A program made the position numbers and the translations under genes. 64,000 nucleotides of DNA. Source: an uncultured Candidatus Saccharibacteria bacterium. Lineage in GTDB: Bacteria > Patescibacteriota > UBA1384 > DTJR01. Below the pieces are notes generated by a model. The model was not told the DNA's origin and ran no database searches. It was given only the letters and a program-made list of their open reading frames with translations. The stretch covers positions 72,983-136,982 of the forward strand of contig CAZAOT010000003.1 in assembly GCA_964487045.1 (NCBI GenBank). Direction: 5' to 3'. This document shows, one piece after another, positions 1,748-36,993 of this stretch (positions are counted from its first letter, which is position 1; each line of letters begins with the position of its first letter).

Positions 1748-1787
1748 AATTCCCACAGCGATATTATTCTGATTGCGGAGGCCTACT

Positions 1788-2111
1788 ATGTCCGACCTTT
1801 CTGCTGTCGCTAGTCGTGTTGTTGGGGGTGTTCTTCTGACTCGGACTCCAGGCAATATCTTGCGCTGGGGGGCATTCCGGGTCGTAAATGCTACGACCAA
1901 CCCGGTTGGGTCGTTGCAGTTGGAGATTGAAGCAGTAGAGCCCCCTTTCAAGCAGTTTGAAGGGCGCTCGGTGGCGAAGGGGGTTTACGGCATGGGGCGG
2001 ATGTTCCGAAACCGAGGCAATCCGCCCAAGTATGACGGGAAGATAATTCGGCTGGAGGATCCTCTGCTGATCGCTGGCTATGATCCGGCGCCGATGATCT
2101 TTCTGATCTAG
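1788..2111 (+). CDS. hypothetical protein, GC-rich cassette 1
   Basis: ATG at 1788 follows GGAG (1777-1780). The track start at 1773 is TTG. Composition is GC-rich against the AT-rich flanks and a terminator follows. No family recognised. Confidence 0.6.
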   Translation: MSDLSAVASRVVGGVLLTRTPGNILRWGAFRVVNATTNPVGSLQLEIEAVEPPFKQFEGRSVAKGVYGMGRMFRNRGNPPKYDGKIIRLEDPLLIAGYDPAPMIFLI

Positions 2112-2134
2112 GGCAGCACCCGCTGACCTACAAA

Positions 2135-2173
2135 GGGGCATCCGCACTCACGTGTGGATGCCCCTTTCTCTTT
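2135..2173. terminator. intrinsic terminator between convergent genes
   Basis: 13-bp stem GGGGCATCCGCAC / GTGTGGATGCCCC with loop TCAC, followed by TTTCTCTTT. AAA upstream allows use from the other strand. Confidence 0.75.
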
Positions 2174-2583: not shown

Positions 2584-3657
2584 CTAGGATTTGCCCCAAT
2601 CGAGATCGGGGTCTTCGAGGTCGAATGATCGTCCGCGGATGAATGGATAGATGCGGGTGATCGAGAGGTTGAGGTGCTCAATGGTTTCACGGCTGAGGAT
2701 TGGCTTGGGCTTGTTGCGAAGTGCCCCGAACAACCGATGGACTTCATAGTCATTCATCTGCAGCAGCAGAAGCGTTGGATTGGCGTCTTGGAAATGCTCA
2801 GAAGACGAGATGAACTCATAACAGCGTTCAAGCTCGCTGGCAAACGGCTTGCGATTAGCGTTGAGCGGTACGTAACAGTTAGCGTACATCCAATCGCGTA
2901 GTCGCCAGAATTCCTTGGCTTCGTCGCTCTTAGAGAAACTGATCCGACCTACCGATGCCGATTCCCTTACCAGGGCATTTGCGAAGTTGAGCAGCCTCTC
3001 TTCCTTGGTTCGTCCGAAGCACATCGCTTGATGGTCGGCCTCTTCGAAGCCTGCTCCGATCCGCAAACCATCCTCGATGTCAGAGAACATGTAGATTTTG
3101 TCTACGATGTTCACCAGGCGAAACTCCTGAGGAAGCCATATGTACTTCTGCCGAGAAGTGCCTGAGTGGTGGTAGATTCCAAGCAGAGTTTCATAGGCCA
3201 GGTCGAGACCTTTGCCCGAGTGTTCAATTCTCTGTAGGTTCAGGCAGGCGATAATGCGGTGGTCGATCGTCAAACCACACAGCTTCGAGATTGTCTCCTC
3301 TCCAAAATGACCGAAGGGTGCGTGGCCGGTGTCATGCCCTAGCCCAACCGCTTCTGTCAAGTACTCATTTAGCTTGAGGAACCAGGCTATGAGCTTAGCG
3401 AGACTTGCAACCTCCATGATGTGAAGCAGTCGATCATTACTGGTCGATTCTTCTCTTCCGATGAAGACTTGGGTCGTTCCATGCTTGCGAAACAGGGACT
3501 CGCTATTGCCGACCCAGTAAGCATCCTCAATGAAGCCTCGCTTACCGGTTGGTCTCCTTCGCCCTCCCTCTTTCTTTGGTCGTCGTCCGCGACTCATCTC
3601 TTCTTGGAACCGTAGGTGCGCCAAGCACCCACGATATCTCTTGTCGAGGTTTAACAC
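2584..3657 (-). CDS. dGTP triphosphohydrolase-like HD-domain protein, GC-rich cassette 2
   Basis: Motifs TTQVF, HIMEV and GLGHDTGHAPFGH match the dGTPase/SAMHD1-type HD signature. GTG start at 3657 lies 7 nt after GGAGGTG. Composition is GC-rich. Confidence 0.75.
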   Translation of the reverse strand: MLNLDKRYRGCLAHLRFQEEMSRGRRPKKEGGRRRPTGKRGFIEDAYWVGNSESLFRKHGTTQVFIGREESTSNDRLLHIMEVASLAKLIAWFLKLNEYLTEAVGLGHDTGHAPFGHFGEETISKLCGLTIDHRIIACLNLQRIEHSGKGLDLAYETLLGIYHHSGTSRQKYIWLPQEFRLVNIVDKIYMFSDIEDGLRIGAGFEEADHQAMCFGRTKEERLLNFANALVRESASVGRISFSKSDEAKEFWRLRDWMYANCYVPLNANRKPFASELERCYEFISSSEHFQDANPTLLLLQMNDYEVHRLFGALRNKPKPILSRETIEHLNLSITRIYPFIRGRSFDLEDPDLDWGKS

Positions 3658-4154: not shown

Positions 4155-4290
4155 AATTGCCTCCGCTCCTTGTCCAGCCCTTCGCGAAGGGCTGGACCGG
4201 AAGTCCACCTGGAGCGAAATCTATTTGCAGATTTCTTAAATTAAGAATACTGCAAGAGATTATGCGAAGGTGGACACGCTTATTTTTTAC
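4155..4290 (-). promoter_or_regulatory. structured GC-rich 5' leader (member L3 of GGACTTCCGG...GGAGCGGAGG family)
   Basis: Extended -10 TGTTACAAT lies near 4298-4290. A long-range stem GTCCACCT/AGGTGGAC is present. A 12-bp palindromic hairpin GTCCAGCCCTTC/GAAGGGCTGGAC sits directly before the SD. Confidence 0.5.
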
Positions 4291-7245: not shown

Positions 7246-7968
7246 CTAGCTTGGTAGCTGAAGCGGAGTTAGATACTCAGCAGCTCTGGGAGTCGCCTTG
7301 ATGTCAGCTTTGTATCCATAGGTTCTCGCTGTCTCCAGATCCCAAGCGTAACTACCAGCGGGCTGAGTGGGCCTTGCGATGATTCGCGGGTCAAACCCTA
7401 TCTCATTTCCGGTCGTTGCCCAGTCGATATATGGGTTGATGTCAACTTCATACCGGAAAGGATCGGTCCGATCGCCGGCAGCAAGTGTAGCCAGCTCATC
7501 TAGACGATCGTCTGGCCAGTAAACCTTGCTTGTTGTCTGGCGGTTTTCGATCTCGACCCATTCATCGCCAACTGAGATGACTTCCGCTTCGTCGAAATGG
7601 ACAAATGCCTCTTGCGGAATCTCAATCTCCGGAAACATCAACTCCTCGGGACAGAGCTGTTCGAAGAAGGTCGTGCCAAGTAGCGTTATGCTGTCATCCC
7701 CACGTGGGATGACAAAGTAGGGCTGGTTTTCGTATGCGCCCCACTTCTGGCCAGGCCAGAGATAGCCAAGCGCCCAATCACCGTCTTTTTGCTGATAGAC
7801 GAGCCATGCCGCGCCGCTTCGAACTTCCCACGCTACTGAGCAAAAGTTGTGAAAAGCTGGTTCGGCTGGCCGCTCCGGTGATATCCTTAGCAGGAAAGAG
7901 CAGCACATGTCGGCTTTGTACATGAACGAGTCGATGATCCTTGGCCTAAACTGAAGCCGGTTTGGCAT
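7246..7968 (-). CDS. hypothetical protein, GC-rich cassette 3
   Basis: ATG at 7968 lies 6 nt after AAAGGAGG. The track start at 7992 is less well placed. 240 aa, no motif recognised. Confidence 0.6.
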   Translation of the reverse strand: MPNRLQFRPRIIDSFMYKADMCCSFLLRISPERPAEPAFHNFCSVAWEVRSGAAWLVYQQKDGDWALGYLWPGQKWGAYENQPYFVIPRGDDSITLLGTTFFEQLCPEELMFPEIEIPQEAFVHFDEAEVISVGDEWVEIENRQTTSKVYWPDDRLDELATLAAGDRTDPFRYEVDINPYIDWATTGNEIGFDPRIIARPTQPAGSYAWDLETARTYGYKADIKATPRAAEYLTPLQLPS

Positions 7969-8028
7969 GTCTGCCTCCTTTTGTTCTTTCAAATGCTACA
8001 GGGTTGCATAAAGCTTGCCACTTTGCAG

Positions 8029-8953: not shown

Positions 8954-9523
8954 CTAGCCCTTGCAGTCAGGGCATACGATCGTGATTTGGTTTCCTACGC
9001 CGGACCCTGTGTCCGGAATGAAGGGATCTCCACAGCGGAAGCAGTATCTGGGTTCACCTGCAACCAGCTTCTTGTCTGCATCCGAGCAGACCTTGCACTT
9101 GCGGGGATTCCAGAGGTTGCGTCTGCTTGGGGTATAAGCACCGCAATGTGGGCAGTAGAAGTGTGTCATTAGGCGTTGCCCAGTGCTCTTGGCGACAGGC
9201 GGGATCCAGCGCTTGATCGTGAAGCGCTGCTCCAAACCAGGGTGCAACTCTACCGTAGCGCCGTGGCCGCTGGTAGCTCGGACAGCAAAGCCGTTTTCCA
9301 GAAAGAGGTTCGCTATCTGCGCGAGTTCGCCCAGAGGTTCCTGGTTGAGGGCAGTTGCCAACTCAACATAGCATAGTTCTTCTGGAATGCTAGCGGCAGG
9401 CTGGTTGATTTCGACAGCGATACGAGCTTGCTGCTCCTCGGGTAGATTTGCCAATAAGGCAGTAATCCGCCCCTTGAGCGCGTCTGCTTCTTGGCTTGTA
9501 CTGGTGACTCGGGCGCGGATCAT
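8954..9523 (-). CDS. double zinc-ribbon protein, GC-rich cassette 4
   Basis: The C-terminal 70 aa carry four CxxC pairs (CPHC, CKVC, CFRC, CPDC). The N-terminal about 110 aa are unassigned. SD AGGGAG is upstream. Confidence 0.65.
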   Translation of the reverse strand: MIRARVTSTSQEADALKGRITALLANLPEEQQARIAVEINQPAASIPEELCYVELATALNQEPLGELAQIANLFLENGFAVRATSGHGATVELHPGLEQRFTIKRWIPPVAKSTGQRLMTHFYCPHCGAYTPSRRNLWNPRKCKVCSDADKKLVAGEPRYCFRCGDPFIPDTGSGVGNQITIVCPDCKG

Positions 9524-10074: not shown

Positions 10075-10149
10075 GGGCCTGTAGCTCAGTGGTAGAGCAG
10101 TTGCCTTTTAAGCAACGTGTCGTGGGTTCGATACCCACCAGGCCCTCCA
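10075..10149 (+). tRNA. tRNA-Lys (anticodon UUU), CCA encoded
   Basis: Hand-folded cloverleaf. Acceptor stem GGGCCTG/CAGGCCC, D stem GCTC/GAGC, anticodon stem GTTGC/GCAAC with loop CTTTTAA, T arm GTGGG-TTCGATA-CCCAC. 75 nt in total. Confidence 0.92.
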
Positions 10150-10187: not shown

Positions 10188-10341
10188 TTATTTGGAGTCA
10201 CTTAAGAGCGCGAAAGGCGTAGGCCGAGCTAAGGTCGAGAAAAAAAATCAGCAAAAATTGTCCAACATCTTGATTTTTTGAAAAATAAGTGAATAATGTA
10301 TTATTAATTTGGAATACGTACATTGAAAGAGGTAGGTAGCG

Positions 10342-10761
10342 ATGAGTAAGCGCATCCTGGTGGTTGATGATGAGCGCCACATCGTCCGTCTGGTTAAGCT
10401 CAACCTGGAACGCGCCGGCGGCTATGACGTCCTGACAGCGTACGACGGGATCGAGGCTCTGGGCAAAGTCAAGACCGAGAGCCCCGATATGGTGGTGCTC
10501 GACATCATGATGCCCCGGATGGACGGTTACGAAGTACTGCGTAACTTGCAAGCAGATCCCAGCTGCCAGAACATACCCGTGATCATGCTGACCGGCAAGG
10601 ACCAGGACGCCGACTTCTTCAAGGCCTGGGCCAGTGGGTTGAGGGCATATATGACAAAGCCCTTTGATCCCCAAGAATTGCTGACATTCATCCAACGGAT
10701 CTTCGAGGCCGATCAAATCGGGTATGGGGATGATACAGATGATTCGTGCTTTGAAGTGTAA
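10342..10761 (+). CDS. stand-alone response-regulator receiver (CheY-like), GC-rich cassette 5
   Basis: The acidic pocket and phospho-acceptor pattern ILVVDDE...DMVVLDIMMPRMDG...MLTGK...KPF is present. No output domain and no kinase nearby. Confidence 0.9.
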   Translation: MSKRILVVDDERHIVRLVKLNLERAGGYDVLTAYDGIEALGKVKTESPDMVVLDIMMPRMDGYEVLRNLQADPSCQNIPVIMLTGKDQDADFFKAWASGLRAYMTKPFDPQELLTFIQRIFEADQIGYGDDTDDSCFEV

Positions 10762-10785
10762 TGTAGCTTGCCCCTCTCGATTCCC

Positions 10786-10827
10786 ATGCCCGCATCTGCT
10801 CCGGAGGCTTTGCGGGCATTCTTTTTC
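10786..10827 (+). terminator. intrinsic terminator of cassette 5
   Basis: ATGCCCGCA/TGCGGGCAT stem followed by TCTTTTTC. Confidence 0.85.
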
Positions 10828-11003
10828 TAAATAGTTAACACCCATTTTATAAAGTCCAAACACAAATTTTTCAAAATTAGTTCAATCTGAGCCACAGGTG
10901 AAATTTCGCGTTCCACCCGCGAAATCCCCAGAAATAAAATTGCCCCGTTAGGGGCTATTTTAATTATTTAGAGATGTTTCCAGTCGTGTGATATATTAGT
11001 CCT

Positions 11004-16448: not shown

Positions 16449-16473
16449 GTTGGCCAAAATAGGGAGGCAGATT

Positions 16474-17739
16474 GTGGACAAAGAAGCGATCCAAGGCGCC
16501 CGCAGGGCGCTTCTGCTCAAGAAGCTTGAAGTAGCATCAACGACCAAGGAATGCACCCTTGCGTTCCAGGGTCTCAAGCTCTACAGAGATGACCTTTCGA
16601 TTGTCGCCACTCGTAAGAGAGCGATTGAGCTCGCAGCTTCGGCAGGCGACATGGATGAGGTTCGTCGCTTTCCGTATGATGTGGGTATCTTCTCTCTGGG
16701 AGATCAGGCTTCCGAGTTCTTTCGTAAGGCCATGCTGCTTTGCAGGCCTGAAGAAGTATACGACTTCACAGGCAACTTCGGCTATTACGCCGATGAAGTT
16801 GTTAGCTTCCTTGTCGAGGGGCTTACCGATCCGCTCAAGCTGACTCGACTAGCGATGCGACTCGGAGCGGAGGGTCTGCTTGAGCGCGGACAGGAAGTGA
16901 TCGCTCGGGCTGCTGAACTGGCTGCAAGCTGGGAAGTGTGCGGTTATGTCGGGACGATACACTATGCGCCGCTTCCGACAGGGTTTCTGACCATGGCCGT
17001 CCTTCTCGCTGAGGGGCAGAAGGGTTACGATGCTCCTCTCGAAGTTTGTGGGTGGATGAAGGCTTCGCTCAACGACCCGCTCGAATTCAGACAAGCAGCG
17101 GCTGTTGCCGAGCTGCTTGATGCGCCAAACAAGCGTATCAGGCGGGTAGCCGGAGAGCGGATCAGGCAGGCTTACCAGGAGAAACTGAGCGGCCAAGATG
17201 GCGACTTCTATATCCAAAGCGCCTGGAACGTCGTTTGCGATGCCCGCGATGCGCTTCCGGAACTGGCTGCAGAGCTGACCGCTGATCTCGTGGTGCGTCT
17301 GACAGATGCGGTACCAGCCTGTCAGGACTTTTCGGAGGCAAAGTCGCATCTTGAAGTCGCTTCCGCAATGGAGGACTTCGGGATCGATGGAGTCTACTGG
17401 CCGGCAGCCATGCGTGCGATGGAGCTGGCAGAGGGCTGTGATGATATCCTGGCGTTGGTGCGCCTTGGCATTCATGTCCAGGAGCTCACCGAGGCTGTCC
17501 TGGTAATGGCTGCAACCGAAGATGATATCATTGCAGTCATACAGCGCAACCCGAACTTCTCTGGTGAGTGGACGTTGCCTCTTTGCGAGCGGATCTTCGA
17601 CTATCGGCGCCAGAGGGCGCAGACGATCGAGGACTTCATGATTCTGCATCACCTGACCAAGGACCCGGTCAAACTGGCCGAGGTCGAGGATCGCATCCAG
17701 GAGCTCATCGCTCCATACCATACCGAGCCTGAGGAGTAA
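16474..17739 (+). CDS. hypothetical all-alpha protein (about 421 aa), cassette 6 gene 3
   Basis: GTG at 16474 lies 6 nt after GGGAGG and is in frame with the track start at 16450. The sequence is acidic and Leu/Ala-rich. A terminator follows. Confidence 0.65.
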   Translation: MDKEAIQGARRALLLKKLEVASTTKECTLAFQGLKLYRDDLSIVATRKRAIELAASAGDMDEVRRFPYDVGIFSLGDQASEFFRKAMLLCRPEEVYDFTGNFGYYADEVVSFLVEGLTDPLKLTRLAMRLGAEGLLERGQEVIARAAELAASWEVCGYVGTIHYAPLPTGFLTMAVLLAEGQKGYDAPLEVCGWMKASLNDPLEFRQAAAVAELLDAPNKRIRRVAGERIRQAYQEKLSGQDGDFYIQSAWNVVCDARDALPELAAELTADLVVRLTDAVPACQDFSEAKSHLEVASAMEDFGIDGVYWPAAMRAMELAEGCDDILALVRLGIHVQELTEAVLVMAATEDDIIAVIQRNPNFSGEWTLPLCERIFDYRRQRAQTIEDFMILHHLTKDPVKLAEVEDRIQELIAPYHTEPEE

Positions 17740-17763
17740 CTTCCCCTGGTTCATGGCTCTACA

Positions 17764-20389: not shown

Positions 20390-20418
20390 TTGACTTGTCT
20401 GCTGATTTTGTCTAATAT
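20390..20418 (+). promoter_or_regulatory. promoter TTGACT-17-TAATAT for cassette 7
   Basis: TTGACT at 20390-20395 and TAATAT at 20413-20418. Confidence 0.6.
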
Positions 20419-20476
20419 CTGCTTATCGGAGGCTTTGATCCTTCGGTATTTCTTCAAATCGGCAGGAGGGAGCGTC

Positions 20477-20851
20477 ATGCCGAGGGATTCGATTCTCTAC
20501 GAAAAAGCCAGGGCGAGGTGGGAGTATGCTTCACATCTTCCATCTCGCAGTACAGTCAGGCAGTATTCGCTCAAGTGTTTCGCATTAGTATACCCGGTCG
20601 AAGTTTTGCGGGAATACTGGCGTGTAGACGCGTTGTCGCGCCAGAGTCTAATGGTATCGTCTCACAGCTTTGCCCCTTCTCCCGCTGAACTTGCAGCCAT
20701 GGCAGAAGGGCGTGACCGTAATGAACGGCGCGCAAATCAAGCCAGGGCGAGACTCGAAAGGATGGCGACGGAGCACGGGGTGGACCTAGATGCGATGGCT
20801 GATGATATCGCATTCGTTTGGCACAACTGGAGTCTGCTTGAGCTCGAGTAG
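20477..20851 (+). CDS. hypothetical protein (124 aa), GC-rich cassette 7
   Basis: ATG at 20477 lies 6 nt after GGAGGGAG. The C-terminal half is Arg/Ala-rich. Confidence 0.55.
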   Translation: MPRDSILYEKARARWEYASHLPSRSTVRQYSLKCFALVYPVEVLREYWRVDALSRQSLMVSSHSFAPSPAELAAMAEGRDRNERRANQARARLERMATEHGVDLDAMADDIAFVWHNWSLLELE

Positions 20852-30137: not shown

Positions 30138-31556
30138 ATGAAAAAAGGTTTAGCGTCAAAGCTTAATCTATTGGCGCACCCTACTTATTTGTTGATCTTT
30201 TTGACTCTAGGGTTGATTGTCAGTGTAAATTTACCCTTATGGCTAATTTATTTATCTTTTTACCTCACTTTTATTGGCATTTTGTTGGTTCTATTTAAAA
30301 TTAAAAGTGGTGCTTGTTTAGTTTTTCTTGGTTTTGGAATTTTGATCGGAAGCTATCATTTATATAGTGTCGATCATCCCCTTCCAAGCGGTTGTGATGA
30401 TGCGAAAGTTCTTTCAAGGGCAAAGAAATTTAAGACAGGGTTTGTATATAAAATCAAGGGTTCTAAAGAAGTTCTTCTCTACAGCCAAAGCGATGATTTC
30501 AAGATCGCTGATAAAGTGCGAGTATGTTTTGGTAAGCCACTTTTACTCGAGGCAAGGGATCGCAGATATCTTCTATCTCAACTACATAGCCAAAACCTGA
30601 TGGATGCAAGTGAAATAAAGTTACTTGAGCCGGGCAAGGGGGTGAAGAATTATTTAGAACTTCTTAGCGATAAATTTGCAGGCGATGCTGCAAAACTTTT
30701 CTCGGGAGATCAGGGCACTTTAGCTTATGGTGTGATTTTTGGCGGCGGTGATTTTTCAAAAGAGCTCAAGAATGACTTTAAGCGAAGTGGCACAACTCAC
30801 ATCGTTGCAGTCTCGGGTTACAACGTATCGATTATCACTGCTTGGATGTTTGATTTTCTGCGCCAAATAAGTAAGAATTTTTCGGGAATATTTTCTGTCT
30901 TGGCGCTAGTGGGGTTTTATTTTATTACTGGCGGATCGGCTTCGGTTCTTCGCGCTTCGGTCATGGGAGTGATTATTCTTCTTACTAAATTTATAGGTCG
31001 CAAGGTTTCGCCTCTTCATTTATTAATGCTAGCGGCGAGTTTGATTTTAGCTTTTAATCCTTTTGCTCTTTATGATTGGGGATTTCAACTTTCCTTCTTG
31101 GCAACAGCCGGATTATTTTTTCTTGCACCTGCGATTGAAAGCTTGCTCTCTAGAGTAAAATTCAATAAAAGTTTAATTAAGACTTTTAGCGAAACGATCG
31201 GTGCACAAATTTTTGTCCTGCCGATACTTGTGGCAAATTTTGGTTCATTTTCTATCATCTCGCCACTTACTAATCTTTTGATCCTGCCCCTTATTCCCCT
31301 TTTAATGAGCTTAGTCTTTATTTCACTTATAGGTTTTACCCTCTATCATCCGCTGGGAATATTTTTATCTGGAATAACAAAAATATTATTAGCTTATGTA
31401 ATTTGGATCGTAAAATTAAGTTCACTGCTGCCGTTTGCGAGTCTTAATTATAAACTTGATCCCTTGATCGCTATTCCTTTTGGATATGGCATAATCATAC
31501 TATTAACTTATTACTTAAGAAGAAGATATCTTGTTAAATCAAAACAAAATATTTGA
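30138..31556 (+). CDS. comEC: ComEC/Rec2 DNA-uptake channel, membrane (competence) domain only
   Basis: GTTHIVAVSGYNVSI motif and multiple TM helices. The MBL domain is missing. Confidence 0.82.
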   Translation: MKKGLASKLNLLAHPTYLLIFLTLGLIVSVNLPLWLIYLSFYLTFIGILLVLFKIKSGACLVFLGFGILIGSYHLYSVDHPLPSGCDDAKVLSRAKKFKTGFVYKIKGSKEVLLYSQSDDFKIADKVRVCFGKPLLLEARDRRYLLSQLHSQNLMDASEIKLLEPGKGVKNYLELLSDKFAGDAAKLFSGDQGTLAYGVIFGGGDFSKELKNDFKRSGTTHIVAVSGYNVSIITAWMFDFLRQISKNFSGIFSVLALVGFYFITGGSASVLRASVMGVIILLTKFIGRKVSPLHLLMLAASLILAFNPFALYDWGFQLSFLATAGLFFLAPAIESLLSRVKFNKSLIKTFSETIGAQIFVLPILVANFGSFSIISPLTNLLILPLIPLLMSLVFISLIGFTLYHPLGIFLSGITKILLAYVIWIVKLSSLLPFASLNYKLDPLIAIPFGYGIIILLTYYLRRRYLVKSKQNI

Positions 31557-32394
31557 CTACCTGCTGCTAGCAGTTGTTTTAGTTGGTCTTTTTCTGTATT
31601 CGACAATATATCAAAATGCTCAAGCCAACATTGACCCTGCCTCAGCCAAAATTAGTTTTTTGGATGTCGGCCAAGCGGATTGCGCATTAGTTAATTTGCC
31701 AAATAATAAGCAAATTCTGATCGATGCAGGCAAATCGTCAGACGTTGTCTCGAAAATAAGATCGAGGATGCCGGCCTTTGATTCGGAGATAGAAGCGGTT
31801 TTCTTGAGTCATCCAGATAGTGACCATGTTGGAGGGTTTGTCTCGGTTCTTAATTCTTACAAAGTCGACAAAGTTTATCTGAACACCGATCAATCTGACT
31901 CTAAGACTTTTGACGCGATTTTAGCTGAAATGGATAAGCAAAAAATTTCTCACGAAGTGATCGGCTCTGGACGAGACGTGTATATAGAAGATCTGCGAAT
32001 CAAAACGCTTTGGCCTTCGGAAAATAGTGGTTCCTTAAGTGAAAATAATCGCTCCTTGGTGCTAAAGCTAATGATCAAATCGGGAGTCGCTCTTTTTACG
32101 GGAGATCTCGAGATAGAAGGGCAGAATAAATTAATGAGTGAATATAAGGAAGAAGATCTTTTGGCAGATTTGTATAAAGTTCCACATCACGGAGCCTCTG
32201 GAGCGTGGAATGAAAGCTTTGCCCAGAAGGTTAAACCCAAAAATGCTGTGATTTCGGTAGGTAATAATTCATATGGTCATCCTGGGCAAAGTACAATTAC
32301 GGGACTTGAGAAGATAGGAAGTAAGGTTTATCGCACAGATCAGCTAGGTACGATTGATTTTGTCCTAAGTGAAGCGGGATTTGTGTCAAAATAA
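31531..32394 (+). CDS. ComEC C-terminal MBL-fold domain encoded as separate ORF
   Basis: FLDVGQADC, HPDSDHVGG and VPHHGA motifs. It overlaps the previous ORF by 26 nt in the +1 frame. The start is a TTG. Confidence 0.78.
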   Translation: MLNQNKIFDYLLLAVVLVGLFLYSTIYQNAQANIDPASAKISFLDVGQADCALVNLPNNKQILIDAGKSSDVVSKIRSRMPAFDSEIEAVFLSHPDSDHVGGFVSVLNSYKVDKVYLNTDQSDSKTFDAILAEMDKQKISHEVIGSGRDVYIEDLRIKTLWPSENSGSLSENNRSLVLKLMIKSGVALFTGDLEIEGQNKLMSEYKEEDLLADLYKVPHHGASGAWNESFAQKVKPKNAVISVGNNSYGHPGQSTITGLEKIGSKVYRTDQLGTIDFVLSEAGFVSK

Positions 32395-32398
32395 TACT

Positions 32399-32436
32399 TA
32401 AAAAAGAGGAAAGCCCCCCGCCATGCGGCAGGGGGC
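32399..32436 (-). terminator. intrinsic terminator of cassette 8 (probably bidirectional)
   Basis: GCCCCCCGCC/GGCAGGGGGC stem. TTTCCTCTTTTTT follows on the minus strand. Confidence 0.8.
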
Positions 32437-32461
32437 CTTGTTTCCCGGTGCGATGAAAGTC

Positions 32462-32911
32462 TCACCAGCGTCCCCCCGGGTAGGGGTTGTTGGCGCGCTC
32501 GAAGTTCCGCTGAGCGCGCTCCAGGTCTCGGTAGCCGCTCGACAGGTAGCCGAGCCGCCGCCGCTCCGCTTCGATGGCGGAGATTTGGTTGTTGTACCCA
32601 CCCTGAGGCAGGTACCCGCCTTGGTAGCTGTAGCCACCCTGGGCGACGTAGCCGTTGCCGCAGCCATAGTTGCGCTGCTGGCAACCGCAGATAGTGCCGA
32701 TCGGCCTGATTTGGAAGCAGGCCGAACAGCGGACGAGCTGCGCCTGCGGGGCGAAGTAACCGCCACCGCAGGTGGGCATCGGCATCGGGCGATAGCCCGG
32801 GCCGCACCCACCACCGCTGCCACCGACCGAGAGGATCACGGTGATCCTGGGGCCGGCGCTCGCCGTCGAAACGGCGGCGATTACGACGAGAACGATTGGC
32901 ATCGTCCTCAT
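32462..32911 (-). CDS. secreted Gly/Cys/Tyr-rich low-complexity protein, GC-rich cassette 8
   Basis: ATG at 32911 yields the signal peptide MRTMPIVLVVIAAVSTASA. GGY repeats and 10 Cys. It was chosen over three overlapping ORFs because it has an SD, a promoter and a terminator. Confidence 0.55.
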   Translation of the reverse strand: MRTMPIVLVVIAAVSTASAGPRITVILSVGGSGGGCGPGYRPMPMPTCGGGYFAPQAQLVRCSACFQIRPIGTICGCQQRNYGCGNGYVAQGGYSYQGGYLPQGGYNNQISAIEAERRRLGYLSSGYRDLERAQRNFERANNPYPGGRW

Positions 32912-32956
32912 TTTGGACACCTCTTTCAAAGGTGCTGGAATTGACTGATTCGGGTA

Positions 32957-32985
32957 ACTATACCACAATTACCCGAGAAAGTCAA
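32957..32985 (-). promoter_or_regulatory. promoter TTGACT-17-TATAGT with CGGGTAA/TTACCCG inverted repeat spanning the -10
   Basis: Minus-strand TTGACT is at 32985-32980 and TATAGT at 32962-32957. The inverted repeat is CGGGTAATTGTGGTATAGTTACCCG. Confidence 0.6.
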
Positions 32986-32988
32986 GGT

Positions 32989-33348
32989 TCAGACCCTCAG
33001 CATCGCTCCCACGCTCAGCTCCATCTGAGTCTCGAGCCTATCAAGTGAGCAATATGCCCTCTGGATCGAAACCTCCCGAAGATCTCTCGGCTTTGCCAGG
33101 GAGATGACGTGTATCTCGCCGAGTTCATGCTCCTCAAGTGTATCAACAGCAGTTGTGTGACCTTCATTGCAGATAATCAGGTAAGGTCCTTCGCACTTGA
33201 GAGCGAAGATCTCCCGAATATCTCTTCCGTGGAATTCGTGAAGCAGGTATGTCAGCTCGAGGCGTTCAAGTACCGCCTTTACTTTTGAGCCGATCATCCG
33301 CTGATCCTCGACTGCCACGGCCGATACAACACAGATTTGCCTTTTCAA
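32989..33348 (-). CDS. hypothetical protein (119 aa), GC-rich cassette 8
   Basis: TTG at 33348 lies 7 nt after AAGGAGG. No motif recognised. Confidence 0.5.
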   Translation of the reverse strand: MKRQICVVSAVAVEDQRMIGSKVKAVLERLELTYLLHEFHGRDIREIFALKCEGPYLIICNEGHTTAVDTLEEHELGEIHVISLAKPRDLREVSIQRAYCSLDRLETQMELSVGAMLRV

Positions 33349-33362
33349 ACCCTTCGCCTCCT

Positions 33363-33391
33363 TTGCGAAAGATGTGGTTCTAAGATATAAT
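33363..33391 (+). promoter_or_regulatory. promoter TTGCGA-17-TATAAT for yebC-ruvC
   Basis: TTGCGA at 33363-33368 and TATAAT at 33386-33391. Confidence 0.55.
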
Positions 33392-33425
33392 CTAGTCCGA
33401 AATTAAGGAAAAGCAAGAGGTTTAT

Positions 33426-34139
33426 ATGTCGGGACATTCTAAATGGGCTTCAATCAAACACCAAAAGGCAGCCACTGATAAAAAACGAAGCAATGTTTTT
33501 ACAAAACTTGCCAATAACATTTCGGTTGCCGCCAGGGGTGGTGGCGATCCAGCAATGAACTATTCATTAAGGTTAGCTATCGAGAAGGCCAAAGGGGCTA
33601 ATATGCCCAAGGACAATATCGAGAGGGCAATCAAGAGAGGTACCGGTGAACTCGGTGGGGCTTCTATCAGTGAAGACTTATTTGAAATTTATGGCCCAGC
33701 GCAAACAGCAATCTTGGTTGAAACAATTACTGATAATAAAAATAGAACTTCGGCCGAAATAAAAGCAGTCATCAATAAAATGGGTGGTAAGCTAGCTAGT
33801 GCAAATGCAGTCTCATATATGTTTGATCGAAAGGGTGAAATAAAAGTAAGCATTGATGGTCAAGGTGAGGAAGATTTAGAGCTAAAAATTATTGAATCAG
33901 GCGCTGAAGATTATCAGCTCATCGATGACGGGTATTTGATCTATTGCAAACCAAACGAACTCAAGCAGGTTGCGGATATTCTGCTTGATCAAGGACTAAA
34001 AGTTGAATCATCAGAGTTGGTTTGGTTACCCAAAGAAACTATTTCTGTTCCAGAAGAAGATTCGGCTAAAGTAATTAGGTTGCTTGAGGCACTGGATGAT
34101 CTCGACGATGTTGCAAATGTAAGCTCGAATTTAGGTTAA
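33426..34139 (+). CDS. yebC: YebC/PmpR-family transcriptional regulator
   Basis: MSGHSKWASIKHQKAATDKKR is the hallmark N-terminus. Confidence 0.95.
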   Translation: MSGHSKWASIKHQKAATDKKRSNVFTKLANNISVAARGGGDPAMNYSLRLAIEKAKGANMPKDNIERAIKRGTGELGGASISEDLFEIYGPAQTAILVETITDNKNRTSAEIKAVINKMGGKLASANAVSYMFDRKGEIKVSIDGQGEEDLELKIIESGAEDYQLIDDGYLIYCKPNELKQVADILLDQGLKVESSELVWLPKETISVPEEDSAKVIRLLEALDDLDDVANVSSNLG

Positions 34140-35730: not shown

Positions 35731-36993
35731 ATGAAAGTGATGATTCTTCTTAAATTTCCTCTATATGGAGGCGGAAGCGGAACGTACACTAGGAAGCTCG
35801 CTGAGCTTCTGGCTAAAGAGAAGGGGTATCAAGTTGCGGTTGTTTCTCCTGATACTAGAACTATAAAAGGTTGCAAGCACTATCAGATTAAACCTGCTTT
35901 CAAAGCGGTATTCGAGGCTCACCCCGAGATGAAGCGAGCCAAAAAATATTCTCGGCTTTCTGGCAGTGAATTTTCGAGACAATATTCGGCCTACTTACGT
36001 GACATTACTAATGCGGTTGCTGATTTTAAACCAGATGTTATTCATGTTAATCACGCTTCATTTTTAACATGGATAGCTTCATTTATTCGCTCAATGTTTG
36101 GAATAGCGTTTGTAACCACTATACATGGGACTGGTGTGTATAATGCAACTATCGATCAAAGATATAGGCTCTTAACAAAACAAGCTCTTGAGAGATCTGA
36201 AAGCTTGATTGCTGTTTCTCCTCATACCAAAAAATGGTTCTTAAAAGTTTTTGGTAAGAGCTTGATCAAAAAAACAAGAATAGTTCCAAATAGTATTGTT
36301 TTGGATGAGTATATTAAGAAACCATCAGTCGTTAAAATTGAGAAAGAATATAATCTAAAGGGTAAAAAAGTGGTTCTCTTTGCGGGAAGGTTGACCTGGG
36401 AAAAAGGTGTCGAATACTTAATTCGAGCAGCAAAGACAATTAAAGGAAATGTTTATATAGTTGGTGGTGGACCCCATGAGAAAGCCCTGAAGAATCTAGT
36501 AAAGCTAACTGGTGTTAAGAACGTTCATTTTCTTGGGTATATCGGCAAAGACAAGTCAGATGTTTTAAAAGCTCTCTTCTATCGTGCCAATGTTTTAGTA
36601 TTACCTTCAGTGGTAGATGAATCTACTGGTTTGGTTTTGCTTGAGGCAATGGCTTGTAAAACACCCGTAGTTGCATCGGACAAAGGTGGAATTCCTATAG
36701 TTATCAAAAATGGACATAATGGTTTTTTGGTCAGAGCTAGAAGCTCAAAGGCAATATCTCAAGCCGTGAATAATATCCTAACCGATGACATACTGGAGCA
36801 GCGGTTAGGTGAAAATGCTCGCATCACTATCGAAAACAAATTTAGATGGAAGGTTATCTTGCCTCAATTTACTGCGATATACGAAAAAGCTGCTGATGTT
36901 ACACACAAACTACAGAATCAGAAATATAGAGCACTATTCGATAAAGAAGATATTATAAGAGAAAAGGAAGAATTGCAGAAGAAAATTGTTTAG
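35731..36993 (+). CDS. GT4-family glycosyltransferase
   Basis: GGSGTY N-terminus and the C-terminal motif ESTGLVLLEAMACKTPVVASDKGG (E-x7-E type). Confidence 0.85.
   Translation: MKVMILLKFPLYGGGSGTYTRKLAELLAKEKGYQVAVVSPDTRTIKGCKHYQIKPAFKAVFEAHPEMKRAKKYSRLSGSEFSRQYSAYLRDITNAVADFKPDVIHVNHASFLTWIASFIRSMFGIAFVTTIHGTGVYNATIDQRYRLLTKQALERSESLIAVSPHTKKWFLKVFGKSLIKKTRIVPNSIVLDEYIKKPSVVKIEKEYNLKGKKVVLFAGRLTWEKGVEYLIRAAKTIKGNVYIVGGGPHEKALKNLVKLTGVKNVHFLGYIGKDKSDVLKALFYRANVLVLPSVVDESTGLVLLEAMACKTPVVASDKGGIPIVIKNGHNGFLVRARSSKAISQAVNNILTDDILEQRLGENARITIENKFRWKVILPQFTAIYEKAADVTHKLQNQKYRALFDKEDIIREKEELQKKIV

What the first reader, a model, noticed from the sequence alone, without database searches (positions are those of the whole stretch)
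32399..33370. GC-rich pair: secreted Gly/Cys/Tyr-rich low-complexity protein and a 119-aa unknown, with an operator-like palindrome over the -10 box
The region 32400-32970 is so GC-rich and low in complexity that four long ORFs overlap on both strands. Only one, 32462-32911 on the minus strand, has a signal peptide (MRTMPIVLVVIAAVSTASA), an SD, a TTGACT-17-TATAGT promoter and a terminator.

Its mature part has GGY/QGGY repeats and 10 cysteines. This composition resembles secreted structural or antimicrobial-type peptides.

The inverted repeat CGGGTAA-N11-TTACCCG straddles the -10 hexamer, suggesting repressor control. The upstream 119-aa gene is a possible regulator, but it has no helix-turn-helix that I can see.
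Basis: partly seen in the sequence, partly recalled or inferred. Interest (0 to 1): 0.5.

Follow-up and report, generated by a model that had tools for sequence, protein, structure and literature searches.

The report
Orphan secreted Gly/Tyr/Cys protein, hairpin-tiled mRNA
A real but wrongly annotated gene for a small secreted glycine/tyrosine/cysteine-rich protein, found in only two related uncultivated bacteria, whose GC-rich mRNA folds into a chain of about 13 hairpins; the neighbouring 119-aa gene is a lineage-specific add-on and shows no sign of being a regulator.

Summary
32400-32950 is 64-70% GC in a ~40% GC genome and carries four overlapping long ORFs. Only the minus-strand ORF 32462-32911 (149 aa) behaves as a gene:
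- GC3 is 0.83.
- It has an SD, a TTGACT-17-TATAGT promoter and a terminator.
- One orthologue exists (156 aa, E 2e-20) in the same comEC-MBL / yebC-ruvC slot of a relative with about 80% identical housekeeping proteins.
- That orthologue keeps the signal peptide (ASA|GPR), six cysteines, the promoter and the terminator.
- dN/dS is about 0.2, with third codon positions least conserved.

Public gene calls mostly pick the antisense 173-aa ORF.

Corrections: there are 7 cysteines, not 10. The palindrome has 17-nt arms (32941-32985).

New finding: synonymous sites are saturated between the orthologues, yet GC3 stays at 0.84 and 0.66 against about 0.35 expected. Both mRNAs fold far better than synonymous-codon shuffles (z -6.2 and -4.6). 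The coding sequence is tiled by about 13 hairpins, including a conserved hairpin over the start codon.

The 119-aa gene and the palindrome are both absent from the relative. The 119-aa protein has no homologues and no DNA-binding motif, so a repressor role is unsupported. The function of the secreted protein is inferred only.

The parts
32400..32439 (-). Intrinsic terminator of the secreted-protein gene: 13-pair GC-rich hairpin plus T run
   Evidence: Found by the terminator scan. The RNA fold is -32.7 kcal/mol for 32395-32465, z -4.0. It aligns with a hairpin plus T run in L086, with one compensatory C-G to U-A change.
32462..32911 (-). CDS of the 149-aa precursor (signal peptide 32855-32911, mature 130 aa at 32465-32854, stop 32462-32464). 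The mature protein is basic (pI 9.4): 20% Gly, 10% Arg, 8.5% Tyr, 7 Cys.
   Evidence: GC by codon position is 0.60/0.57/0.83. Orthologue P0004 has E 2e-20 in conserved synteny. Nucleotide identity by codon position is 0.59/0.62/0.40. pN is 0.34 and pS 0.70.
32681..32737 (-). Conserved cysteine core LVRCSACFQIRPIGTICGC (C-x2-C-x9-C-x-C), modelled as a beta-hairpin
   Evidence: This is the longest invariant block of the two-sequence alignment. AF2 places strands at residues 59-68 and 72-80, at low confidence.
32886..32911 (-). Start-codon hairpin: codons 1-4 pair with codons 6-9, 11 bp, 4-nt loop
   Evidence: The fold is -14.3 kcal/mol, z -5.0. The L086 counterpart is -16.6 kcal/mol, z -4.1, in the same register with one A-U to G.U change and no disrupted pair.
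32917..32935 (-). 5'UTR hairpin pairing CACCUUU with the SD (AGAGGUG)
   Evidence: The fold is -8.4 kcal/mol, z -2.8. GCACCT is invariant in the alignment with L086. The L086 version is weaker (-5.8 kcal/mol, z -0.9), so this part is tentative.
32957..32985 (-). Sigma-70-type promoter TTGACT-17-(TGg)TATAGT
   Evidence: Found by the promoter scan. L086 has TTGACT-17-(TGa)TATACT at the aligned position.
32941..32985 (.). 45-bp imperfect palindrome (17-nt arms, 11-nt spacer) centred on the upstream edge of the -10 box, starting 3 nt after the stop codon of the 119-aa gene
   Evidence: Found and rare by chance. As minus-strand RNA it folds at -20.9 kcal/mol, z -6.05; as plus-strand RNA at -17.5 kcal/mol, z -3.85. 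The homologous L086 region has no structure, z 0.03.
32989..33348 (-). 119-aa orphan ORF (TTG start), acidic (pI 5.7), 51% GC, GC3 0.57
   Evidence: ORF. Only self hits were found. It is absent from the orthologous locus. GC3 is 0.58 against 0.34 +/- 0.04 expected from host codon usage. The AF2 single-sequence model has pLDDT 51 with beta-alpha-beta topology.
33357..33363 (-). Shine-Dalgarno AAGGAGG of the 119-aa ORF
   Evidence: Read from the sequence; 8-nt spacer to the TTG at 33348.
32423..32944 (+). Antisense 'shadow' ORF of 173 aa; this is what public gene calls annotate, and it is not a gene
   Evidence: It is called in 4 Logan contigs and is held by NCBI. GC by codon position is 0.79/0.56/0.60. 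There is no homologue beyond itself. The corresponding strand of L086 has only 46-60 aa ORFs.

Best explanation
**The gene (shown).** 32462-32911 (-) is a genuine gene with its own promoter and terminator. It encodes a roughly 14-kDa basic protein exported by the Sec pathway, with cleavage after ASA. The layout is:
- a short N-terminal strand;
- a Gly/Pro-rich YRP segment;
- a conserved four-cysteine beta-hairpin core (CSAC-x9-CxC);
- QGGY/GGY low-complexity repeats;
- a charged C-terminal helix.

It is an old resident of this lineage, not a recent import. A relative with about 80% identical housekeeping proteins carries the orthologue in the same slot between comEC-MBL and yebC-ruvC. It evolves about three times faster than its neighbours but is under purifying selection.

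**The mRNA (shown).** The GC-richness is kept up at synonymous sites, and the arrangement of synonymous codons makes the mRNA a chain of about 13 local hairpins. The first hairpin buries the start codon.

**Inferred from these facts.**
- The hairpin-rich mRNA is selected for, most likely to give a long-lived message whose translation initiation is throttled or conditional.
- The protein acts outside the cell as a self-associating, adhesive or cross-linkable surface or matrix component. The grounds are its many Tyr and Arg 'stickers', its disorder and its odd number of cysteines.
- The 119-aa gene is a later, lineage-specific insertion just upstream.
- The 45-bp palindrome that appeared with it is most simply the 3' stem-loop of that gene's transcript. 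Alternatively it is an operator for an unidentified factor. It is not part of the conserved unit.
For: **Frame and strand**
- GC3 is 0.83 in this frame only.
- Third codon positions are least conserved.
- pN is 0.34 and pS 0.70.
- L086 keeps one long ORF only.

**Orthologue and synteny**
- YebC, RuvC and GalT are 83%, 79% and 77% identical.

**Conserved signals**
- Promoter.
- Terminator with a compensatory change.
- Signal peptide with ASA|GPR.

**GC3 maintained**
- Observed 0.84 against expected 0.34 +/- 0.04 in the window.
- Observed 0.66 against expected 0.38 +/- 0.04 in L086.
- Synonymous sites are saturated meanwhile: pS is 0.77-0.90 in the neighbours and 0.70 in this gene.

**mRNA structure**
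- Dinucleotide-shuffle z is -7.6 and -6.8. Nine control genes range from -2.7 to +1.9.
- Synonymous-codon-shuffle z is -6.2 and -4.6, with 0 of 150 shuffles as stable. Controls are -0.7 to -1.6.
- Thirteen hairpins tile the CDS in both genes.
- The pairing-direction profiles correlate at r = 0.40, with 0 of 387 circular shifts as high. The YebC control gives r = 0.17.
- The sense strand gains more than the antisense strand.
- The start-codon hairpin is conserved.

**119-aa gene and palindrome**
- Both are absent in L086.
Against: - There are only two family members, so covariation is thin. Projecting one global MFE structure onto the other sequence keeps no more pairs than random (34 of 84 against 32.6 expected). 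What is conserved is hairpin position or propensity plus the first two hairpins, not a full structure.
- Part of the fold excess could come from the low-complexity Gly (GGN) / Pro (CCN) / Ala (GCN) coding. The codon-shuffle control argues against this as the whole cause.
- There are no expression, proteomic or secretion data.
- AF2 models are of low confidence (pLDDT 41 and 51).
- The extracellular adhesive or matrix role rests on composition only.
- Pre-split acquisition with only partial GC3 decay is not rigorously excluded; it was rejected with a simple decay estimate, and a separate entry into each lineage at the same slot was judged unlikely.
Confidence: 0.55

Rival explanations
1. The secreted protein is an antimicrobial (bacteriocin-like) peptide. 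Its promoter is repressed by the 119-aa protein binding the palindrome, or the 119-aa protein is its immunity factor.
For: - The mature product is small, cationic (pI 9.4), Gly-rich and Cys-containing, and it evolves fast.
- It has its own promoter and terminator.
- The palindrome overlaps the -10 and -35 boxes and is unlikely by chance.
- The palindrome and the 119-aa gene are present together in one genome and absent together in the other.
Against: - The orthologue lacks any adjacent partner gene, so neither immunity nor this regulator is needed.
- There is no double-glycine leader and no transporter or immunity genes nearby.
- The 119-aa protein has no DNA-binding motif, no transmembrane segment and no homologues. 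The model is a generic alpha/beta fold.
- The half-sites lie 19 bp apart centre to centre, which is long for a simple dimeric operator.
- No second operator copy lies in an intergenic region of the window.
Confidence: 0.15
2. The GC-rich segment is mainly a structured RNA, either non-coding or dual-function. The ORF is incidental or secondary, and the protein's Gly/Pro/Ala/Arg/Tyr bias is a by-product of palindromic GC-rich DNA.
For: - The fold z-scores are extreme in both orthologues and stronger on the sense strand.
- Hairpins tile the whole transcript.
- L086's extra 9 residues correspond to an extra hairpin module.
- Palindromic DNA explains why both strands stay open.
Against: - The substitution pattern is clearly protein-like, with position 3 least conserved and dN/dS of about 0.2.
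- The SD, ATG, signal peptide with cleavage site and the Cys motif are conserved.
- Only one frame is conserved.
- There is no Rfam family.
- Exact pairs are not conserved beyond the first hairpins.
Confidence: 0.12
3. The pair is a recently acquired foreign island from a high-GC donor that has not yet taken on the host's composition. The RNA structure is not selected.
For: - GC is 67% and 51% against 40% in the host, and the codon usage is atypical.
- Several other GC-elevated orphan ORFs lie in the same window.
- The 119-aa gene is indeed present in only one lineage.
Against: - The secreted-protein gene sits in the same slot in a relative whose synonymous sites are saturated against this genome. 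It therefore predates the split.
- With at least 1 synonymous substitution per site per lineage, a simple decay model would leave GC3 at or below about 0.5. The observed values are 0.84 and 0.66 (inference).
- No homologue was found in any high-GC organism among 1.8 billion representatives.
- The codon-shuffle test shows an ordering of synonymous codons that composition alone does not give.
Confidence: 0.1
4. The public annotation is right: the gene is the 173-aa ORF on the plus strand (32423-32944).
For: - It is the longest ORF and starts with ATG.
- Gene callers chose it in 4 of 5 Logan contigs, and the sequence is held by NCBI.
Against: - GC is highest at codon position 1, not 3.
- It has no homologue.
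- The equivalent strand of L086 is broken into ORFs of 46-60 aa.
- It would run head-on into the promoter and start inside the terminator of the opposite gene.
- The SD-like AAGAGGA lies 12 nt from its ATG and belongs to the terminator's T/A run.
Confidence: 0.02

Closest known systems
Plant glycine-rich proteins of classes I and II (signal peptide, GGX-type repeats, cysteine-rich domain; PMC5852109)
   Same: It has an N-terminal signal peptide, Gly-rich repeats with Tyr (GGY), a separate Cys-containing module and an extracellular destination.
   Different: - There is no sequence homology (Pfam gives 0 hits).
- It is bacterial.
- The Cys motif is central rather than C-terminal.
- The repeats are few.
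- It has an added charged C-terminal helix.
- The resemblance is in composition only.
Sec-dependent, cationic, disulfide-containing bacteriocins and Gly/Tyr-rich antimicrobial peptides (own knowledge, not tested)
   Same: The product is small, basic, Gly-rich, Cys-containing and fast-evolving, and the gene stands alone.
   Different: - At 130 residues the mature protein is large for this class.
- There is no immunity or transport gene in either genome.
- There is no double-glycine leader.
- No activity is known.
Coding sequences under selection for extreme mRNA secondary structure (Gebert et al. 2019, PMC6544989)
   Same: The arrangement of synonymous codons gives far more structure than codon shuffles. 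This is the signature that paper describes as widespread.
   Different: - This case is extreme, with z of -6.2 and -4.6.
- It is coupled to a GC3 about 0.3-0.5 above the genome.
- It is seen in both orthologues despite saturated synonymous divergence.
- It includes the start codon, where structure is normally avoided.
Dual-function RNAs such as Staphylococcus aureus RNAIII (514 nt, 14 stem-loops, encodes delta-hemolysin; PMC12612679)
   Same: It is a transcript of about 540 nt made of about 13-14 stem-loops, and it also encodes a secreted product.
   Different: - The ORF here fills nearly the whole transcript (149 aa) and is under protein-level selection.
- No base-pairing target is known.
- There is no Rfam match.
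Translation-initiation-region hairpins such as RNA thermometers (own knowledge)
   Same: The SD and the AUG each sit in a hairpin.
   Different: - An 11-12 bp GC-containing AUG stem of -14 to -17 kcal/mol is much more stable than typical thermometers.
- There is no Rfam family.
- Temperature response is untested.
Response-regulator receiver domain (PF00072), considered for the 119-aa protein
   Different: - Pfam gives no hit at E <= 1.
- The hhalign probability is 1.7%.
- In the only alignment, the phospho-acceptor Asp is Asn.

Membership tests
Sec (signal peptidase I) secreted proteins | Positively charged n-region, hydrophobic h-region of about 10-15 residues, and small residues at -3 and -1 (AXA) | tested here: met
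   The leader is MR-TMPIVLVVIAAVS-TASA|GPR. The 11-residue hydropathy reaches 2.9 at the N-terminus only. The same layout and ASA|GPR occur in the orthologue. SignalP itself was not available.
Bacterial lipoproteins (signal peptidase II) | Lipobox L-[AS]-[GA]-C with Cys at +1 | tested here: not met
   There is no Cys within or right after the leader in the window protein. The first Cys is residue 36.
Class II bacteriocins | Double-glycine or Sec leader plus an adjacent immunity gene, usually with a dedicated transporter | tested here: not met
   A Sec-type leader is present. In L086 the neighbours are only yebC and comEC-MBL. PADLOC, Pfam and NCBIfam give no hits.
Any curated protein family (Pfam, NCBIfam, PHROGs, PADLOC, PDB sequences), for both proteins | Significant profile or sequence match | tested here: not met
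   There are 0 families at E <= 1, apart from chance-level rows.
Helix-turn-helix or other DNA-binding transcription regulators (119-aa protein) | A recognisable DNA-binding domain | tested here: not met
Response regulator receiver domain (119-aa protein) | Match to PF00072, an acidic pocket and a phospho-acceptor Asp at the end of beta3 | tested here: not met
   Pfam gives no hit. The hhalign probability is 1.7%. Asn61 aligns with the acceptor Asp.
Repressor-operator pair (119-aa protein plus palindrome) | Protein binds the dyad; the dyad is conserved with the regulator | not testable with these tools
   There is only one genome with both and one with neither. An EMSA is needed.
Sigma-70-type promoter | -35 and -10 hexamers at 17 +/- 1 nt, upstream of the gene | tested here: met
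   The match is 10 of 12 with a TG extension. The promoter is conserved at the aligned position in L086. The transcription start is not mapped.
Intrinsic (Rho-independent) terminator | GC-rich hairpin followed by a U run, after the stop codon | tested here: met
   The L086 counterpart has a compensatory pair.
Known RNA families (Rfam 15) | Covariance-model score at or above the gathering threshold | tested here: not met
   The only hit in the window at gathering threshold is a tRNA at 10075. In 32350-33450, only sub-threshold hits on the terminator appear.
Structured RNA with a conserved fold | Base pairs kept through compensatory changes across homologues | tested here: inconclusive
   - Hairpins 1 and 2 and the terminator keep their register, with 2 compensatory and 3 wobble-compatible changes and no disruption.
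- The global MFE projection is no better than random.
- The profile correlation is significant.
- Only two sequences are available.
Horizontally acquired island | Atypical composition plus absence from close relatives | tested here: not met
   - The secreted-protein gene has atypical composition but is present in the relative, so the test is not met.
- The 119-aa gene has GC3 of 0.58 against 0.34 expected and is absent from L086, so both criteria are met for it.

The most novel reading that the evidence does not exclude
The nucleic-acid hairpin array is the primary selected feature. In this reading the transcript is a dual-function structured RNA. Alternatively, the protein arose from a GC-rich array of hairpins and is still shaped by it. 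Either way, the Gly/Pro/Ala/Arg/Tyr low-complexity composition, the indels that come as hairpin-sized modules, and the open frames on both strands would all follow from selection on RNA or DNA folding rather than on the protein alone.
Probability: 0.13. Interest if true: 0.75.

Novelty: new variant of a known kind. Interest (0 to 1): 0.42.

Why it matters
**Annotation.** A real secreted-protein gene is annotated on the wrong strand in public records, because its GC-rich, self-complementary sequence leaves a longer antisense ORF open. The same trap probably affects other GC-rich islands in low-GC genomes; one likely case is at 16450-17754 in this window.

**Evolution.** The gene keeps a GC3 0.3-0.5 above its genome across saturated synonymous divergence. 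Its synonymous codons are ordered so that the whole message folds into hairpins. That makes it a clean natural case for testing selection on mRNA structure against mutation bias and amelioration.

**Biology.** Small, fast-evolving secreted proteins of uncultivated bacteria are candidates for cell-surface or cell-cell interaction functions. This one has a compact conserved cysteine motif that could be tested directly.

Tried and rejected
**Homologue searches**
- The word-indexed protein search returned only self hits for the 149-aa, 119-aa and 173-aa ORFs.
- The full phmmer search gave one true orthologue. It also gave one low-complexity hit, P0005 (1007 aa, E 2e-4, five repeats of a Gly/Ala/Thr motif), rejected as compositional.
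- Pfam, PHROGs, NCBIfam, PADLOC and PDB sequences gave nothing.
- tblastn against phage and plasmid collections gave nothing.
- Viral-contig scans gave nothing.
- Two metagenome scans gave nothing: one with the family alignment and one with the MBL C-terminus, for which the tool chose uninformative patterns.

**Population variation**
- All five other contigs carrying the locus are 100% identical to the window, so there is no population variation to use.

**Structure prediction**
- The 149-aa AF2 model is too poor for fold search (pLDDT 41).
- The afdb50 library was unavailable.

**119-aa protein as a receiver domain**
- Rejected on an hhalign probability of 1.7%.

**Conservation of the mRNA fold**
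- Pair-by-pair conservation of the global mRNA fold is not better than random.

**Other ideas for the palindrome**
- It was considered as an integron attC-like site or a terminal repeat. There are no R'/R'' core sites, no integrase, and most of it aligns with the pre-existing promoter of L086.
- Extra operator copies were sought. The three other TCGGGTAA sites all lie inside ORFs.

**Literature**
- A search for the SRA run accessions found nothing.
Full report
**1. The observation**

The window averages about 40% GC, but 32400-32950 reaches 64-70%. Four long ORFs overlap there. Three are on the minus strand (155, 141 and 168/149 aa) and one is on the plus strand (173 aa).

- a minus-strand promoter TTGACT-17-TATAGT at 32985..32957, with a TG extension;
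- a 13-pair terminator at 32439..32410, followed by a T run.

An SD (GAGGTG) lies 6 nt before the ATG at 32911.

Two details need correction. The protein has 7 cysteines, not 10. The inverted repeat over the -10 box is larger than described. It has an 8-bp perfect core (TCGGGTAA-N11-TTACCCGA) inside 17-nt arms that are 14/17 complementary, at 32941-32985. Repeats of that quality are expected 0.24 times per 64 kb in local shuffles.

**2. Which frame is real**

GC by codon position is 0.60/0.57/0.83 for the 149-aa minus-strand ORF. That is the pattern of a true GC-rich gene. The 173-aa plus-strand ORF has its GC peak at position 1 (0.79/0.56/0.60), as expected for an antisense shadow.

The word-indexed protein searches found only self hits for all three candidate products. 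An exhaustive phmmer search of 1.8 billion representatives found one homologue, P0004. It is 156 aa, with E 2e-20 and 59% identity over residues 1-113.

P0004's contig (L086) comes from one of the samples that also holds the window genome. It has the same gene order:
- ruvC-yebC on one side;
- the C-terminus of the comEC metallo-beta-lactamase gene on the other;
- the homologue in between, in the same orientation.

YebC, RuvC and GalT are 83%, 79% and 77% identical between the two genomes. In L086 only the signal-peptide frame is open. All other frames are broken into ORFs of 107 aa or less.

Across the codon alignment, nucleotide identity is 0.59/0.62/0.40 by codon position. Nei-Gojobori counts give pN 0.34 and pS 0.70, so dN/dS is roughly 0.2. 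Neighbouring genes have dN of 0.13-0.15 with saturated pS of 0.77-0.90.

The gene is therefore real, on the minus strand, vertically inherited since before the two lineages split, and fast-evolving.

Public gene calls chose the antisense 173-aa ORF in four of five Logan contigs. That sequence, not the 149-aa one, is the one held by NCBI.

**3. What is conserved**

The alignment keeps these features:
- the leader and cleavage site (…ASA|GPR);
- GGC, PxC, and the block QL[VI]RCSACFQ[IV]RP[IV]GTICxC;
- QGGYLPQG;
- a charged C-terminal segment ending in Y-x-G-R.

The mature window protein is 130 aa with pI 9.4. It is 20% Gly, 10% Arg, 8.5% Tyr, 7.7% Pro and 7.7% Gln. Each orthologue has seven mature cysteines, six at conserved positions.

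AF2 on the two-sequence alignment is of low confidence (pLDDT 41). It places a beta-hairpin on the cysteine block and a helix at residues 107-141, and leaves the rest unstructured.

Upstream, L086 has TTGACT-17-(TGa)TATACT at the aligned position. Downstream, it has a terminator hairpin with one compensatory change.

**4. An unexpected property of the mRNA**

GC3 of this gene is far from what host codon usage predicts for the same amino acids:

| Gene | Observed GC3 | Expected GC3 |
|---|---|---|
| Window | 0.84 | 0.34 +/- 0.04 |
| L086 | 0.66 | 0.38 +/- 0.04 |

Synonymous sites are saturated between the two genomes. A simple decay towards host composition should therefore have removed most of any donor signal. 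This is an inference from a simple relaxation argument. GC3 appears to be maintained.

The transcript also folds much better than expected:

| Test | Window | L086 | Controls |
|---|---|---|---|
| Dinucleotide shuffles (z) | -7.6 | -6.8 | -2.7 to +1.9 (nine control segments) |
| Synonymous-codon shuffles, protein and codon usage fixed (z) | -6.2 | -4.6 | -0.7 to -1.6 |

In the codon-shuffle test, 0 of 150 shuffles were as stable as the native sequence. The result is unchanged when the first 51 nt are removed.

Local folding shows 13 consecutive hairpins tiling the coding sequence in both genes, at similar positions. The downstream-minus-upstream pairing profiles correlate at r = 0.40 across the alignment, and 0 of 387 circular shifts reach that value. 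YebC is more similar in sequence but gives only r = 0.17.

The sense strand gains more stability than the antisense strand, beyond what the shuffles give.

Individual hairpins:
- **Hairpin 1** pairs codons 1-4 with codons 6-9 and buries the AUG. It is -14.3 kcal/mol (z -5.0) in the window and -16.6 kcal/mol (z -4.1) in L086. The register is the same, with one A-U to G.U change. This explains the 14 identical nucleotides ATCGTTCTCGTCGT, third positions included.
- **Hairpin 2**, with a UUCG loop, keeps its register with one compensatory and two wobble-compatible changes.
- **A 5'UTR hairpin** pairing CACCU with the SD is significant in the window only.

Against a fully conserved fold, projecting either global MFE structure onto the other sequence retains no more pairs than random. 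With two sequences I can claim only three things: a conserved propensity, conserved positions, and two conserved 5' hairpins.

Selection for extreme structure in coding sequences is a described phenomenon (PMC6544989). This case is extreme, and unusual in that it includes the start codon. No Rfam family matches.

**5. The 119-aa gene and the palindrome**

The 119-aa ORF has a strong SD (AAGGAGG, 8 nt before TTG). It is 51% GC, with GC3 of 0.58 against 0.34 expected. It has no homologue anywhere searched and no family match.

In L086 the whole gene is missing. About 75 bp of unrelated sequence lie between the yebC promoter and the TTGACT of the secreted-protein promoter. The 119-aa gene is therefore not part of the conserved unit. 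Its composition suggests it was gained in the window's lineage.

The palindrome is also lineage-specific:
- The -35 box, the extended -10 box and the right arm are largely alignable with L086.
- The spacer and several arm positions differ, leaving 5 of 17 complementary positions by my count on the alignment.
- The homologous L086 region has no predicted structure (z 0.03).

In the window the palindrome begins 3 nt after the 119-aa stop codon. As minus-strand RNA it folds at -20.9 kcal/mol (z -6.05), better than the plus-strand version at -17.5 kcal/mol. No U run follows it.

Two readings remain open. It may be a 3' stem-loop of the inserted gene's transcript, which I favour slightly. It may instead be an operator. 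The 119-aa protein as its binder is not supported, but it is not excluded.

**6. Most likely mechanism**

*Shown:*
- a monocistronic gene for a Sec-type exported, basic, largely disordered Gly/Tyr/Arg/Pro/Gln-rich protein with a conserved four-cysteine hairpin;
- restriction, as far as 15 billion proteins show, to two related uncultivated bacteria;
- a message that is exceptionally structured, with the initiation region sequestered.

*Inferred:*
- The structure is selected for message stability and throttled or conditional translation.
- The protein self-associates or adheres outside the cell. The grounds are many Tyr and Arg residues, disorder, and an odd cysteine count that could give intermolecular links.

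An antimicrobial role is the main alternative. It is weakened by the absence of any immunity or transport partner in either genome.

**7. Novelty and score**

By sequence this belongs to no known family. By kind it is a small secreted low-complexity protein gene, which is ordinary in uncultivated bacteria. The unusual part is the nucleic-acid signature: persistent high GC3 and a hairpin-tiled mRNA.

I rate it a new variant of a known kind, with interest 0.42. The organism is not identified. The best YebC matches in the genome collection are only 49% identical and come from Parcubacteria, Patescibacteria and Chloroflexota MAGs.

Noticed in passing
window 32423-32944 (+): Public gene calls (NCBI and 4 of 5 Logan assemblies) annotate the antisense 173-aa shadow ORF. 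The real 149-aa gene was called only once, on a 951-bp contig.
   Followed up: yes
window 30138-31556 and 31531-32394 (+): ComEC is split into two ORFs that overlap by 26 nt, a 'Competence' domain ORF and a metallo-beta-lactamase ORF. This is either a natural split or a frameshift. The same calls appear in the Logan contig L002.
   Followed up: no
window 16450-17739 (+) / 16849-17754 (-); also 10198-10863 (-) over 10342-10761 (+): Other GC-elevated stretches (55-58% GC) have long ORFs open on both strands and no Pfam hits. The exception is the stand-alone receiver domain at 10342-10761, with GC3 of 0.71. The same wrong-strand annotation risk applies here.
   Followed up: partly
window 1764-2147, 2584-3657, 7246-7992, 8954-9523, 20390-20851: Several further ORFs have GC of 52-57% and GC3 of 0.57-0.62 in a genome with GC3 of about 0.35. 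Most have no Pfam domain; 2584-3657 has an HD domain. ORFs 7246-7992 and 8954-9523 also fold somewhat better than shuffles (z -2.7 and -2.1).
   Followed up: partly
window 4166-4203 and 36034-36080: These are the only two other inverted repeats in the window of the same quality as the promoter palindrome (8-bp perfect core, at least 14 of 17 complementary).
   Followed up: no
L086 2347-2384: In the relative, the start-codon hairpin is followed by GTTTGTTTCG and was flagged as terminator-like by the scan. The window copy lacks the T-rich tail.
   Followed up: no
L086 2478-2497 (nt 131-150 of the gene): The relative's extra 9 residues (PVYRPPCPP) roughly coincide with one additional self-contained hairpin (-15.2 kcal/mol; nt 131-150, encoding PPVYRPA). 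This suggests that indels in this gene come as hairpin-sized modules. The insertion also creates a PPP motif next to yebC. From my own knowledge, the YebC family has recently been linked to relief of polyproline stalling; this was not checked here.
   Followed up: no
window 32986-32990 and 33376-33380: The pentamer GGTTC occurs at both edges of the segment that is missing in L086 (the 119-aa gene). It is too short to distinguish a target-site duplication from chance.
   Followed up: no
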